64,000 nt of DNA, taken from contig OX597814.1 in assembly GCA_951406725.2 (NCBI GenBank), positions 169,694,001 to 169,758,000 of the forward strand, written 5' to 3'. Positions 56,244 to 62,236 of this stretch are shown here, piece by piece. Position 1 is the stretch's first letter; each line of letters begins with the position of its first letter. The notes below the pieces were generated by a model that had not been told where the DNA came from, searched no databases, and saw nothing but the letters and a program-made list of their open reading frames with translations. Source of the DNA: Octopus vulgaris (taxonomy: Eukaryota). The position numbers and the translations under genes were made by a program.

Positions 56244-56298
<55 letters not shown>

Positions 56299-56299
<1 letters not shown>

Positions 56300-56880
56300 G
56301 TATCTCAAAAGGCATGGTAGATCTGCACAATATATTCACTGGCTAATTTGCAAAAACCTGGATCTGCCCCATTATAAAAACTGGTGGGAACGCAAACCAC
56401 CTCCAGCACTTAAAAATGATCACATCTCACCCCTCTGGAACTTCACCATTCAAACTGACAGAAAGATAGATGCAAAAAGGCCGACATTATATTGAAAGAC
56501 TTCAGACAAAAATCATGCCTCCTCATTGATATGACTGTCCCAATCAATATAAATGTATTTGTCAATACCTACCAAAAACTGAGCAAGTATAAAGATCTTG
56601 AAATAGAAATTGGCAAAATGTGGAATCTGAAGACTAAAACTATACCTGTTGTCATAGGTGCCCTAGGAATGATAGCAAAAGGAGCTGATTGCTACCTAGC
56701 TCAGATACCAGGAAACCCCAAAATGGCAGAAATTCAAAAGATAGTGCTTATGGGAACTGCCCATATCCTACATAAAATACTGTCTATGTAATCTCAAATT
56801 TTAAAACAAACTTATAATTTTCTTATGTGTTCTTAAACATTTTCTAGAACAATACTATGTACAAAACCAAATATTATTGT
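56299..56880 (+). mobile_element. R4/Dong-like RLE domain, 5'-truncated at (TAA)n
   Basis: LWNFTIQTDRK..RP, CLLIDMTVP, KLSKYKDLEIEI..WNLK..IPVVIGALG..IQKIVLMGTAHIL. Confidence 0.88.
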
Positions 56881-58690
56881 CACTGCTATTTACTGTCGTC
56901 TTTATTACAACTGCATGCCTCTGGCCACTTTGTATAGCTATCCACAATGATTAGATAGTATGCACCATTCACTGGGCCAGTGTAGTCGATATGTATCCTG
57001 GATCATGGGCTTTCAGTCTTTGTGCATAGACCTATTTTGTCTGAGAGTACTTGCAGAAACATTTTTTAAAACTTACTCTTCAGACGAATTATTTTTAGAG
57101 GGACAACCATTTGTGTTTGTACAATAGAAATTTATGGGGAGGTCCCATAAATTGACTAATTCTAACCAGTTGGTACCCAACAGATTTGTTGCATTTTTAA
57201 CGATGAAGACTTTCTTTCGCCTTGCATGTTTTCCCTTTAAATGTGACATTAGTCCACATTTCACCCATGGAATTTAACTTGTCTCCCATCACGCTACGAG
57301 CAGATTTTACTGTTTTTCTCAACATAGGTTTCTCTATTTTCTTCCATATGTCTATATTTATTATTGAAATATCACTTCCAGTATCCAAATGAAGTTTAAT
57401 ATGTATTCCATTTGTTTTTATTCGTACAAATTTTCTTATTTGGGTGTCAGTTTCTGTTTCTGCTGAGAGCACTCAAAGATTTTTAACATTTGACCTTCGT
57501 AATTTTGTTATACAGTGTGAACTCTTGTGACCAATTCTTTTGCAACTGTAAGATTTTTGATTTTTAAATGGACAATCTTTTCTGAAATGTATGCACCTCA
57601 CATCCATAACGTGGATTAGGATGTGACGCTCTTTTTTTGTTGTACTTTACTGGTCAGCATATCTGTATTTTTGAGGAATCCTTTTCTTGAATTCTTTCTA
57701 CATCATGTTTCTGGTTTACAATCCTTTGGCATTCTTCTGCCAAGGATTGTAAGGTTAGAACTTGGTTTGCTTATTATGATTTAGAAAGAATTCTTGCCTG
57801 AATTTCTATATCTTCACTTACTGAAAGGCCTTGTACGAAAATAAGACAAGAAATCTCAGGGGTAAGTTCTTTGAGTTCAAAACTTTTACACATCTTGTTG
57901 ACTGTTCCTCCATATGTGATAAAATTCTCATTCTCTTTTTTCTTTATATTCCATCACTTCATTCTAGTGTTAAATAGAGACGTTTTATCACTGAGTATGT
58001 TAGATAGTAATTCTATTGTTTCTTTAAAACAAATTTCATTGGGTTTTGGGGTGATGTGAATTTTTGCAATAACAATCTCACTTTTTGTTTATCCGACCAG
58101 GATTTGTAATCTTGCTTAAAAATCTCATACCTTCTGTAGTACAATGCAAAAGTTATACCCTCCTCTAGGTTATGACTGAATTCATTAACCGAGTTCAAAA
58201 CTCCATCTGGTGAACACAAACTACCTCATATTTTTGACTTGTTTGAATATAGCTCCAATAATTGTTGTTGTTGTAGCTCTTGCTATAATAGTTGGTTCTA
58301 CAACTCCTGTTGCTGCTCTTGTTGCTTTTGCAACTGTATCATGGAAGCTAATAGGTCTTCCATTATTTAACAAGTTGTATCACAAACAAATTGTTAAATA
58401 ACCTACATGAGCTTCGAAGCCCTCGTCATCAGCTGTTGTAGTGTAATTTATTACGTACAATACATAAGATAACCAGACAACAGTAAAAACAATGTTATGA
58501 ACTAACAAATCTCTTTACAAACCAACAATCAGTATTCCTTCTGAAATAATCAACTGACACCATCCAACTTCACTGCAAACTAACACAAACTTCACTTGAC
58601 TCTCAAATCTGAACATACTTGGATCATTACTATTTATACTTTACTCAGACCAGTCTATCTTTCACAAGGGAATGTCATAACTCTCATCAC
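56880..58690 (-). mobile_element. Gypsy-type LTR retrotransposon remnant, RT deleted
   Basis: LTR end ...ACAACA at 58434, PBS-like TGATGACGAGG (58421-58431), gag FALYYRRYE..KVRLLLQK, degenerate CCHC knuckles, protease LDTGSDISII..NLLG, integrase SRIHIDYTGP..LIIVDSYTKWPE. Confidence 0.88.
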
Positions 58691-60582
58691 ATCAAAGGTG
58701 AACTTGACTCTGCTAACTTCTTAGATGTTACATTGGAGATTAAAAAGGGAATTTATAAACCCTTTAATAAACCAAATGAAAACATAAAATATAAAGATAT
58801 TGGAAGTAATCATCCCATATCAGTAACAAATTCACTTATACATAACATTTCATAAAGAATAAACAAATTGTCAGCCAATGAGAATATTTTTAAACTTAAT
58901 GACAACTACTATAAATGATAAAATTAAGTTTAATAAGTCAAATATTGAATCGGATTTAAATAGTAATTTTAATATTGCAGACCTAAAATCTAGTACTATA
59001 AACAAATCTACTTAGAACAAATGTAGTAATGGAGATTTAAAATAGTCAAGTTGATAAAATAACAAGAGTAGGTGATTTTAGTAGCGAGAATAAAAAAGGT
59101 GAACAATTATGTTTATAACAAAAGGAAAAATCATAAGATTGTTGATAACCAGGTTAAAAATTCTTGCACAGCTAATGGAAATGTGGATGTAGTATTCTCT
59201 AATAAAATCTCAGATTCTTTTAATATAAAATTGCCTAAAAGTTAAAAGTAAAATAAATGGATCAAAATCAGAGAATACTTACTCCTTTGAAATCAGATAT
59301 AAAGGTCAAAATTATGATGTTAACTCGAAGAATACTTTATGGTTAATCGTTCCATTTGGAAAACAGGTCAATTACAATTTTTCCAAATTGTTTAATATAG
59401 CAATTGAAAAATATTTTCCAAGAAACTACAGATATTACAAAATTTTTAATTAGCACAAGATTAGATTGGGTTATTGGCTTAGTCGTAAGGTTGCACAAAT
59501 TATAGCAACACTTAATATTAAGATAATATCGAAATTTCAAAAAAGTGATTACAATCAGAATAGCATAATAAATTCTAAGCATGATAACATCAAACAGAAT
59601 AAAGAAACTCAAATAGAAGGAAGCACAAAAAAAATTTAAATGTGATGGAAAGGGAAACAACCCAATTTAACATAAATAATAACATCAAATTGAATTAAAG
59701 TTCAGCTAGAACTAGAACAAAGATAATCTTATCTAAAGGAGTAAATAGTAATAGAGAACTTGATGGAAATGAATTTAATTCTACAATGAATGATCAAATT
59801 GAAACTAAATCTGACAGAAATATAAAAGGCTATCTTTGCAATTGTTCTAAATGGGAATCCTGTTATATGAAAAATATGTGTAAAACTAAAAATGTAATAT
59901 ATGGATGTATAGTTATATCTGAGGGTAAGGAATTCATTTACATCAGTGGGACATCATTAATTTTCAAGAGACTTGTAAATCATTTTTTAGTTCATTTAAG
60001 GACAAAAATAAAAGGTTCAAATGAGTCGTATCAAATTAATCTGGTCTTTCAAGGATAGTAACTATATGATTTTCCGCGAGTTAATTTGTACAACAAAACC
60101 ATACAGACCTGGAACCAATAGTTGTGACCTATGTTTGGAAGAATTTTACAAGATTTTCACATCCAAGGGTAATGTAATAAATTCTAGACAGGACCAAGCA
60201 TTGAGATGCTTGCACATGAGCAAATTTACATTTTCCAAATATGAGTAATTACTATTCAAACTATACAAGGTTTTGAGATGATGGACTGAAAATGATTATT
60301 CAATAAGAATTTGAAATAGAGATTGTTTGCATCATCTGACTTAACAGACAACTCTACATTACACAACACTAAGTGTATAAAAGAAAATCATTAAACGGCC
60401 ATACTGAGGGATATCAAGTTAAGACCCTGAAGAGACTGCACCATTTTATAGTAGTGTTGCAATTGGAATGATTACTAATCGGTGCAATTGAAACATGTTG
60501 GTCTTAATAGACAGTATATAATTATAGAATTAAAGGTAATGCTATTGCTACTTCAGAGTAATTCTTATTTTTAATATTGTCT
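58690..60582 (+). mobile_element. Penelope-like (Naiad-type) element, 5'-truncated
   Basis: RT thumb NFLDVTL..YKPFNKPN..SNHP; CNC..C..C + VIY..YIS + CDLCLEE..INSR..RCLH GIY-YIG region (59786-60248); hammerhead in the 3' region; ends in (TA)n. Confidence 0.9.
60419..60507 (+). ncRNA. Minimal type I hammerhead ribozyme
   Basis: Stem I TTAAGACC/GGTCTTAA, core CTGAAGA (60427-60433), stem II GACTGCACC/GGTGCAATT, GAAA (60490-60493), palindromic stem III ACATGT, cleavage triplet GTT. Confidence 0.8.
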
Positions 60583-60654: not shown

Positions 60655-60816
60655 CAGAAGTGGCTGTGTGGTAAGTAGCTTGCTTACCAACCACATGGTA
60701 CCAGGTTAAGCCTGACCGTGTGGCACCTTGGGCAAGTGTCTTCTAGTATAGTCTCAGGCCAATCAAAGCCTTGTGAGTGGAGTTGGTAGATGGAAACTGG
60801 AAGAAGCTCATCGTAA

Positions 60817-60858
<42 letters not shown>

Positions 60859-61077
60859 ATATATATGTTTGTGTGTCCGTGTTTGTCCCCCCAACATCGC
60901 TTGACAACTGATGCTGGTGTGTTTATGTCCCCGTAACTTAGCAGTTCGGCAAACGAGGCTGATAGAATAAGTACTAGGCTTACAAAGAATAAGCTCTGGG
61001 GTCGATTTGCTCGACTAAAGGTAGTGCTCCAGCATGGCTACAGTCAAATGACTGAAACAGGTAAAAGAGTAAAAGAA
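60655..61077 (+). mobile_element. Full-length tRNA-derived SINE C
   Basis: TGGCTGTGTGG head, internal (TA)n, 3' GCTCCAGCATGGC..AAATGACTGAAACA and (GTAAAAGA)2 tail. Confidence 0.88.
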
Positions 61078-61139
61078 TCTTGTGTATCTTATCATCATCA
61101 TAATTTTAACATTCACTTTTACATGCTCATATAGGTTGG

Positions 61140-62236
61140 ATAGTTTTTGTCGAGGCACATTTGAAACAGAATTGAGGAAATATTAATAACCACCTAGCCT
61201 ACAAACTCTGCCTCCATACAACAGGAAGGTTAGAATTTCTAAATATTAATCAAATTGCTCATAGAACAATGAACCTCTAGGGAGAAACATATAGAACAAC
61301 AACTTTTGCACCTACTCACATCCTTTTGTGAACACCAAAATACAAGATAACAAATTGCCATGCTAAGAACTCCTTGACATAGCAGACTAATAACCCTCAC
61401 CTTCCAAATACAAACAAGCAATATCCTAAATAACAACAAGTAAAGACTCTGACTGGCCAAAACATATTTACATTCTTTTGTAGACCTTTAAAAATTCCAC
61501 TACAAATATGTTAAGACACCCAATTACGAGGTTTCTAAAAACCTAGTGCCGGTGGCACGTAAAAAGCACCAACCGATCGTGGCCGTTGCCAGCCTCCCCT
61601 GGTACCTGTGCTGGTGGCACGTAAAAAGCACCCACTACACTCATGGAGTGGTTGGTGATAGGAAGGGCATCCAGCTGTAGAAACACTGCCAGATCAGACT
61701 GGAGCCTGGTGCAACCTCCTGGCTTCCCAGACCCCGGTCGAACCGTCCAACCCATGCTAGCATGGAAAACGGACGTTAAACAATGATGATGATGATGATG
61801 GGCTAAACAATGAACCCTTTCACCTTTACATTATCAAAGCAAAGGATTAAATCCAATAAAACCAAAATTAACTGAAACTACTGGCATATACTAGACCTAC
61901 CTACATCCTATTTGTGAACAACTAAAAAAAAAACAATCCCAATAACTGAAGTGGAGACACCTAAACATACATACCTGCTAACAAAGTTCTACATAGATGA
62001 ATAAATTCTAAATATTAACACAACTACAAAAATTAATTAAAAAAAACACCTCTATACCACAACCCACCCTACAACCCAATTTCCTCTCCACTCAAACCCA
62101 CATACCCAAGGAAGATTTTAACTCTAACAGAGACTATACAAAGCCAACACTAACTTCAAAGCATTGCACTCTGATGATAGGTTAACTGGTCAAAACTTTG
62201 AAGTCACTGTCAATAATAAGCTTGTTTAAGAATAAT
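61140..62236 (+). mobile_element. Highly decayed Penelope-like element with hammerhead relic, split by SINE A
   Basis: A/C-rich decayed coding-like tract, CTGATGA..AAAACTTTGAAGTC at 62171-62205, AATAAA and a (TA)n end. Confidence 0.45.

What the first reader, a model, noticed from the sequence alone, without database searches (positions are those of the whole stretch)
60419..60507. Nearly intact hammerhead ribozyme behind a Naiad-type Penelope endonuclease
Seen: a perfect 8-bp stem I, core CTGAAGA, stem II (7 Watson-Crick pairs, one G-U, one mismatch) extended by a further imperfect hairpin (TAGTAGTGTTGCAA/TTGGAATGATTACTA), GAAA, a self-complementary ACATGT stem III and a GTT triplet, about 170 nt after the GIY-YIG stop. 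The two departures from the canonical fold (T60489, T60499) each precede a G, as expected from CpG decay of a G10.1-C11.1 pair and a GUC site. Known: Penelope pLTRs carry minimal type I hammerheads with a palindromic stem III that work as dimers. Inference: a self-cleaving RNA with an unusually long stem II (about 56 nt) that may still cut any plus-strand transcript crossing it.
Basis: partly seen in the sequence, partly recalled or inferred. Interest (0 to 1): 0.75.

Follow-up and report, generated by a model that had tools for sequence, protein, structure and literature searches.

The report
Long-armed hammerhead in Hydra-clade retroelements
This is a real hammerhead (self-cutting RNA) motif at the tail of a broken jumping gene of the known Hydra group: its two odd letters are normal for that group, its one unusual feature is an arm two to four times longer than in published animal relatives, and this damaged, isolated copy likely cuts poorly if at all.

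Summary
The type I hammerhead at 60419-60507 is real: only hit of a structural descriptor in the window, 0 hits in 150 shuffles. The element is not a Naiad but a 5'-truncated, decayed Hydra-clade Penelope-like element (RT before a C-terminal endonuclease; RWK, DKT, CxCX5C, CxxC, CxH). T60489 and T60499 are not CpG decay: of 40 family copies 0 have C at 11.1 and 1 at 17, while true CpGs keep CG in 8-24; U11.1 and GUU are common in published Hydra hammerheads. The ACATGT stem III is a 2-nt deletion from the family's 8-nt near-palindrome. What stands: a 56-59 nt stem II arm, fixed in length across seven families whose endonucleases are about 45-55% identical to this one, against 12-26 nt in 25 published Hydra families (a 53-nt arm is published for a plant element). 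Likely mechanism: dimer-dependent, possibly protein-assisted RNA processing during past transposition; cleavage untested. This copy has no partner within 64 kb. The scan noted long-stem-II hammerheads before, in this genome and another. New variant of a known kind; modest interest.

The parts
58695..60582 (+). 5'-truncated, decayed copy of a Hydra-clade Penelope-like retroelement (family A of this report)
   Evidence: Homology to other genomic copies starts at about 58695 and ends at 60581-60582 before TA-rich repeats; K2P 0.083 from the family majority, many stops
58697..58915 (+). End of the reverse transcriptase (RT7 FLDV motif, thumb), broken by stops
   Evidence: matches Hydra rows of Fig. 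S7 of PMC8557442 by eye
59837..59863 (+). CxCX5C linker (CNC-SKWES-C), diagnostic of the Hydra clade
   Evidence: ORF 59699-60058; definition in PMC8557442 section 11
59894..60248 (+). C-terminal GIY-YIG endonuclease, frameshifted; CxxC (CDLC) before the conserved E, CxH (CLH) after the conserved N; stop 60246-60248
   Evidence: no Pfam match for these pieces
60419..60426 (+). Hammerhead stem I, 5' strand; the inner GACC is shared by all seven families
60427..60433 (+). Catalytic box C3-A9, intact
60434..60489 (+). Long stem II arm (56 nt): base helix 60434-60443/60480-60489, middle helix 60449-60453/60473-60477, tip hairpin 60456-60469; copy-specific changes at 60443 and 60469 (true CpG decay), 60455 and 60466
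60490..60499 (+). Box G12-A15, stem III (2 nt shorter than the family's 8-nt near-palindrome), U16.1 and U17; predicted cut after 60499
60500..60507 (+). Hammerhead stem I, 3' strand; the inner GGTC is shared by all seven families
60508..60582 (+). Element tail; in some other copies followed by further element sequence and, in one, by the ORF (pseudo-LTR arrangement); here followed by TA-rich repeats

Best explanation
This is the type I hammerhead motif at the 3' end of a dead, 5'-truncated Hydra-clade Penelope-like retrotransposon copy, carrying a 56-nt stem II arm typical of its lineage, and in the active element it likely cut the element's own RNA as a dimer joined through the self-complementary stem III, while this copy likely cuts poorly if at all. 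Shown: fold, position, clade, family-level U11.1 and GUU, arm length in seven families, decay of this copy. Inferred: two motifs in a tandem (pseudo-LTR) transcript pair through the 8-nt stem III palindrome and cleave after position 17, possibly helped by the element's own protein as in the anole element; the long arm is a stable, tolerated or selected extension that does not disturb the core.
For: Clade: RT before endonuclease, RWK and ADKT/ADKS in longer copies L232, L233, L243, CxCX5C, CxxC and CxH, all listed for Hydra in PMC8557442; TA repeats at the 3' end. Ribozyme conserved: identity between seven family majorities 0.93 (stem I plus 5' box) and 0.88 (3' box to stem I) against 0.57 upstream and 0.63 in the tail. 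U11.1 in 17 of 25 and U17 in 10 of 25 published Hydra families, both together with G10.1 in Hydra-1_Obim and Penelope-17_HM (my count of File S2). A U-U mismatch at the base of helix II still cleaves in an axolotl ribozyme, better as a dimer (PMC7229834). Stem III is an 8-nt self-complement in all seven families, -6.0 to -10.3 kcal/mol as a duplex, while its monomer hairpin has probability 0-0.28; one family swaps A-U for G-C in it (AU 44, GC 5 of 56). Arm 56-59 nt in all seven; of 30 loci picked only on the 3' half, 18 have 55-60 nt, 1 is a miscall at 43, 11 lack a callable 5' box, none has a short arm. Arm folds below shuffles in all seven (z -1.8 to -6.8). Decay: 6 differences from the family majority in the ribozyme, duplex only -4.6 kcal/mol, no second copy in 64 kb.
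Against: No cleavage data of any kind. Covariation is modest: score 0.197 against 0.179 +/- 0.007 in shuffles (3 of 500, a level the tool says related sequences can reach without structure), and pairs changed on both sides (13) are not above shuffles (15.3; 469 of 500); the GACC/GGUC stem I never covaries between families. RNAalifold finds no consensus structure on the decayed copies. The centre of the stem III palindrome is a CpG, so its variants can arise by decay alone. 5' ends of truncated copies are not enriched at the predicted cut (1 of 107 pieces at +1; 2 of 30 loci). In two family majorities (D, G) stem I is not predicted with 40 nt of flank, and in F stem II is disfavoured. The distal arm is no more conserved in sequence than the flanks (0.61), and in family E does not fold better than shuffles (z +0.43).
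Confidence: 0.75

Rival explanations
1. One reading: a canonical G10.1-C11.1, GUC hammerhead of a Naiad element that lost two CpGs after insertion.
For: Both T's precede a G. Some related subfamilies do carry C11.1 (about a tenth of the 100 rows listed; CG or CA in 7 of 191 copies), so a deeper ancestor may have had it.
Against: Family A: C at 11.1 in 0 of 40, at 17 in 1 of 40; true CpGs keep CG in 8-24 of 40. Position 17 is A or U in all seven family majorities; C in 2 of 191 copies by the dinucleotide count. Domain order and motifs are Hydra, not Naiad.
Confidence: 0.02
2. The long arm makes the ribozyme competent as a monomer: a stable stem II stacks on a 2-bp stem III with a tetraloop, so single copies, including ones crossed by host transcripts, cleave at a low rate.
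For: Stem II is highly populated in most families (0.9-1.0 in B, C, D, E). An axolotl ribozyme with a 2-bp helix III and tetraloop cleaves 22% in 1 h as a monomer (PMC7229834); longer helix II raises rates in viral type I motifs (PMC13725137).
Against: Monomer stem III probability 0-0.28; palindromy is kept through the loop centre; the window copy has only a 2-nt loop and the weak family A base (G-U, A-U, C-A).
Confidence: 0.15
3. Family A's motif was already nearly dead as a catalyst when it spread; it is carried along, or kept as a folded protein-binding element, and cleavage is not needed for insertion.
For: Family A has the weakest stem II base (pairing probability 0.17, 0.18, 0 for the first three pairs) and a GUU site (recalled to be slower than GUC or GUA; my searches gave no rates). 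In the anole element, catalytic mutants did not impair insertion in vitro and uncleaved RNA was the main template (PMC11167929). No breakpoint excess at the cut.
Against: All catalytic letters are kept in all seven family majorities, with one extra nucleotide in family C, while flanks diverged; GUU and U11.1 recur in many Hydra families.
Confidence: 0.15

Closest known systems
Hammerheads of Hydra-clade Penelope-like elements, e.g. Hydra-1_Obim, Hydra-1_Crog, Penelope-17_HM (PMC8557442; passages, section 11 and supplement parts 1, 2, 58 read)
   Same: C-terminal GIY-YIG with CxCX5C, CxxC, CxH; RWK and DKT; TA-repeat insertion; type I hammerhead near the 3' end; frequent U11.1, non-G-C first pair of stem II and GUU or GUA site; short self-complementary stem III.
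   Different: Stem II region is 56-59 nt here against 12-26 nt in the 25 listed Hydra families. The ribozyme sequence differs from Hydra-1_Obim and four exact motif searches of that supplement found nothing, so these are other families. Family A also has asparagine-rich inserts in its ORF.
Minimal hammerheads of metazoan Penelope pLTRs (PMC4209133; parts 1-2 of 4 of the main text read, supplements not)
   Same: Type I, short stem I (4-5 bp shared), longer than usual helix II, palindromic 15.2-16.2, proposed dimer, low in vitro activity.
   Different: Published helix II is 6-8 bp with a highly conserved G10.1-C11.1 pair; here the base is 10-12 bp with a variable first pair (G-U, A-U, A-A, A-G) and a further 30-35 nt extension.
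PLE-X1_sMoe hammerhead of a spike moss (File S2 of PMC8557442, marked as deviating)
   Same: Penelope-like element hammerhead with a long stem II region (53 nt by my count): a precedent for length.
   Different: Plant, endonuclease-less element; unrelated sequence; one family, no conserved-length series shown.
Naiad elements (PMC8557442)
   Same: Penelope-like, TA-repeat preference, present in cephalopods.
   Different: N-terminal endonuclease, DKA, CCHH, no canonical hammerhead reported; the first three are not met or not seen here.

Membership tests
Type I hammerhead ribozyme | Core C3-U4-G5-A6-N7-G8-A9, G12-A13-A14, A15.1-U16.1, H17 | tested here: met
   kept in seven family majorities, family C with one extra nucleotide in the 5' box
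Type I hammerhead ribozyme | Three helices, open at stem I | tested here: met
   Stem I and II predicted; pairing 74% of cells against 22-45% in slid controls; stem III only as an intermolecular duplex in this copy
Type I hammerhead ribozyme | Covariation of the helices | tested here: inconclusive
   A few family-level swaps (10.2-11.2 AU/GU/GC; stem III AU/GC); overall counts near the shuffled control
Type I hammerhead ribozyme | Self-cleavage after H17 | not testable with these tools
   No raw RNA reads listed; breakpoints not enriched
Rfam hammerhead families | Covariance-model match | tested here: not met
   No hammerhead row at E up to 10 (150 of 175 rows shown); the long arm is the likely cause (inference)
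Hydra clade of Penelope-like elements | [quoted passage not shown] | tested here: met
Hydra clade of Penelope-like elements | RWK and DKT motifs | tested here: met
   RWK in L232 and L233, ADKT in L232, ADKS in L243, among 17 loci scanned, most of them truncated; absent from the truncated window copy
Hydra clade of Penelope-like elements | CxCX5C linker; CxxC and CxH around the conserved E and N; no CCHH | tested here: met
   absence of CCHH judged by eye
Hydra clade of Penelope-like elements | Insertion into (TA)n | tested here: met
   TA-rich repeats follow the window copy and many of the 30 loci
Hydra clade of Penelope-like elements | Placement in an RT-EN tree with named Hydra proteins | not tested
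   Reference proteins were only read in a supplement and compared by eye
Naiad clade | N-terminal endonuclease before RT | tested here: not met
   Endonuclease is 3' of RT and ends the ORF
Naiad clade | DKA motif | tested here: not met
   DKT/DKS found
Non-LTR retrozyme | Non-coding tandem repeats, each with a hammerhead | tested here: not met
   Single motif behind coding remains; no second copy in the window

The most novel reading that the evidence does not exclude
The 56-59 nt arm is a selected module, not slack: it gates cleavage, either as the docking site of the element's RT-endonuclease protein or as a switch, since its inner GUUGCA strand (60456-60461) can replace the 5' strand of the stem II base by pairing with 60483-60488, and the inner UGCA is kept in all seven families although its hairpin partner differs between them. 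These would be regulated hammerheads that standard descriptors and Rfam miss.
Probability: 0.2. Interest if true: 0.6.

Novelty: new variant of a known kind. Interest (0 to 1): 0.3.

Why it matters
For this locus, little: it is one decayed copy among hundreds. For the lineage, it shows that Hydra-clade hammerheads can carry a long arm of fixed length that Rfam does not detect, so counts of such ribozymes in animal genomes are likely too low. What Penelope hammerheads do is still open; seven natural families that share the core but differ in first pair, cut triplet, stem III strength and arm fold give a ready series for testing dimer dependence and protein assistance.

Tried and rejected
CpG decay at 60489 and 60499: rejected by column counts. 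Naiad: rejected by domain order and motifs. Rfam searches: no hammerhead. RNAalifold on 56 copies: empty structure. Genomic sign of cleavage: 5' breakpoints spread out, no peak at the cut (the peak at -80 is an artefact of cross-family matches starting at the conserved core; samples are biased towards copies covering the queries; an exact 30-nt tail pattern found only 11 copies). Expression: no RNA holder listed; contigs of three guessed-RNA runs gave only short tail pieces or nothing and cannot show ends; no evidence either way. Kissing-loop role for the tip hairpin: loop is self-complementary in A and B only, not pursued. Pfam on the broken ORF pieces: no match to the element. Rates for GUU sites: none found. 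The paper on dimer-cleaving Penelope hammerhead variants (PMC5785218) is not held; it and unseen supplements of PMC4209133 may list long-arm variants. Literature searches for a described long-arm animal Penelope hammerhead found none, within the held library only.

Full report
Observation. The letters are as described: 8-bp stem I (60419-60426/60500-60507), CTGAAGA, a 56-nt stem II arm, GAAA, ACATGT, GTT, 171 nt behind a stop at 60248. The bare core boxes are chance-level in a 64-kb window, but a descriptor that also asks for stems fires only here and 0 times in 150 shuffled windows. Rfam shows no hammerhead.

Host element. The window lies in a 2.8-Gb animal genome (earlier AI notes call it octopus-like, which I did not test). 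The motif ends a copy that starts at about 58695, inside the last RT motif, runs through a frameshifted GIY-YIG endonuclease and stops at 60582 before TA-rich repeats. It is 8.3% (K2P) from the majority of 94 overlapping pieces and full of stops. The order RT then endonuclease excludes Naiad, whose endonuclease is N-terminal (PMC8557442, passages). The same paper defines Hydra by RWK, DKT, a CxCX5C linker, CxxC and CxH around the conserved E and N, no CCHH, and (TA)n targets (section 11). The window has CNC-SKWES-C, CDLC and CLH; longer copies have RWK and ADKT/ADKS; the thumb-to-linker stretch resembles the Hydra rows of Fig. S7 by eye. No tree was built.

The two T's. I aligned 40 copies of this family (A) (a few truncated or mis-joined rows were left in). 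Position 11.1 is T in 34, C in 0; position 17 is T in 38, C in 1. Five true CpG sites keep CG in 8-24 of 40 and show both TG and CA. So U11.1 and GUU were the state of the spreading element. In File S2 of PMC8557442 (my count of 25 Hydra families) U11.1 occurs in 17 and U17 in 10, C17 in only 4; Hydra-1_Obim has the same G10.1-U11.1 plus GUU. Against a flat dismissal: some related subfamilies carry C11.1, so a deeper ancestor may have. The real CpG losses of this copy are at 60443 and 60469. The ACATGT palindrome is a 2-nt deletion from the family's ACATGTGT (2 of 40 copies have it).

Related families. The endonuclease tail found 10,244 candidates, 150 scored. Weaker hits (45-55% identity; 40 fetched) and four further DNA searches gave 191 distinct ribozyme copies in seven families. 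All share GACC/GGTC, both core boxes (family C has one extra nucleotide) and an arm of 56-59 nt; the first pair of stem II is G-U, A-U, A-A or A-G and position 17 is U or A. The distance from stop to core varies from about 180 to over 400 nt, so length changes were common outside the arm. Identity between family majorities is 0.88-0.93 in the core, 0.68-0.74 in the stem II base, 0.61 in the distal arm and 0.57-0.63 in flanks. A 23-place pattern for the 3' half has 344 exact matches and 0 in the reversed control; of its first 30 loci, 18 have a 55-60 nt arm, 1 is a miscall, 11 have no callable 5' box, none is short. All families are old: median 9-19% from their majority, both boxes intact in 94 of 191 copies.

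Structure. On the 8 best-kept copies per family (56 of 191), 74% of cells pair against 22-45% in slid controls; the covariation score is 0.197 against 0.179 in shuffles (3 of 500), but pairs changed on both sides are not above shuffles. Family-level swaps are few: 10.2-11.2 (AU 27, GU 15, GC 10), one C-G to G-C in family C, one A-U to G-C in stem III of family F. RNAalifold returns nothing. The arm folds below shuffles in all seven majorities (z -1.8 to -6.8), its distal part in six. The tip hairpin changes partner: the inner UGCA pairs with the adjacent strand in A, B, D, G and with a distal strand in C, E, F.

Mechanism. Published work proposes that metazoan Penelope hammerheads cleave as dimers through a palindromic stem III, slowly (PMC4209133, parts 1-2 of 4; review PMC6765202, passages). 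In the anole element cleavage needed the element's protein and was dispensable for insertion in vitro (PMC11167929, passages). A U-U mismatch at the base of helix II is compatible with cleavage (PMC7229834, passages). Here stem III is an 8-nt self-complement in every family (-6.0 to -10.3 kcal/mol) with low monomer probability, which fits the dimer model; tandem and inverted partial copies exist. This is inference: nothing was cleaved, and truncation points are not enriched at the cut. For the window copy the duplex is -4.6 kcal/mol, the tip hairpin is damaged, and no partner lies within 64 kb; whether it is transcribed is unknown.

Comparison and novelty. It works like a Penelope pLTR hammerhead and is a Hydra-clade member by every motif tested. 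The difference is the arm: 56-59 nt against 12-26 nt in 25 published Hydra families; 'long helix II' elsewhere means 6-8 bp (PMC13725137, passages; PMC4209133). A 53-nt arm is listed for a spike-moss element, so length has a precedent. Six literature searches found no description of a long-arm series in animals; PMC5785218 could not be read and may hold such variants; a retrozyme preprint (10.64898/2026.07.22.740005, part 1 of 5) and PMC7151607 (passages) added nothing decisive. The scan's own notes report long-stem-II Hydra hammerheads in this genome and in others; I count them as leads, not support.

Verdict. New variant of a known kind; interest 0.3.

Noticed in passing
window 60456-60469 and 60434-60443/60480-60489: The tip hairpin of the arm resembles the base of stem II in sequence, as if the arm grew by a nested duplication; its 5' strand could also pair with the 3' strand of the base (6 bp).
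   Followed up: partly
window 60530-60570; tails of families C-G: A hairpin-forming stretch lies 3' of the predicted cut; families C-G share a GGATGT...TCTCC motif there.
   Followed up: no
family C loci, e.g. L064:591-683 (-), L065:599-689 (-): The 5' box reads CTTGATGA in the family majority: an extra nucleotide or a U3 variant fixed in a whole family.
   Followed up: no
window 58900-59230 and 59540-59830: Asparagine- and lysine-rich low-complexity stretches interrupt the family A ORF between thumb and linker; not seen in the Hydra rows of Fig. S7 read here.
   Followed up: no
window 57073-58225 (-): Broken remains of an LTR-retrotransposon-like element (aspartyl protease, DUF7083); the Penelope copy abuts a separate repeat that ends at 58694.
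   Followed up: no
window 56244-56791 (+): Fragment that looks like the C-terminal restriction-like endonuclease of a non-LTR retrotransposon (recalled resemblance; no Pfam match above threshold).
   Followed up: no
window 60655-61078 and 61540-61790: Dispersed SINE-like repeats flanked by microsatellites; the first matches several fetched loci.
   Followed up: no
L203, L230: Two family A pieces begin at the position matching 60501, one base past the predicted cut, joined to other parts of the element; not enriched over background.
   Followed up: yes
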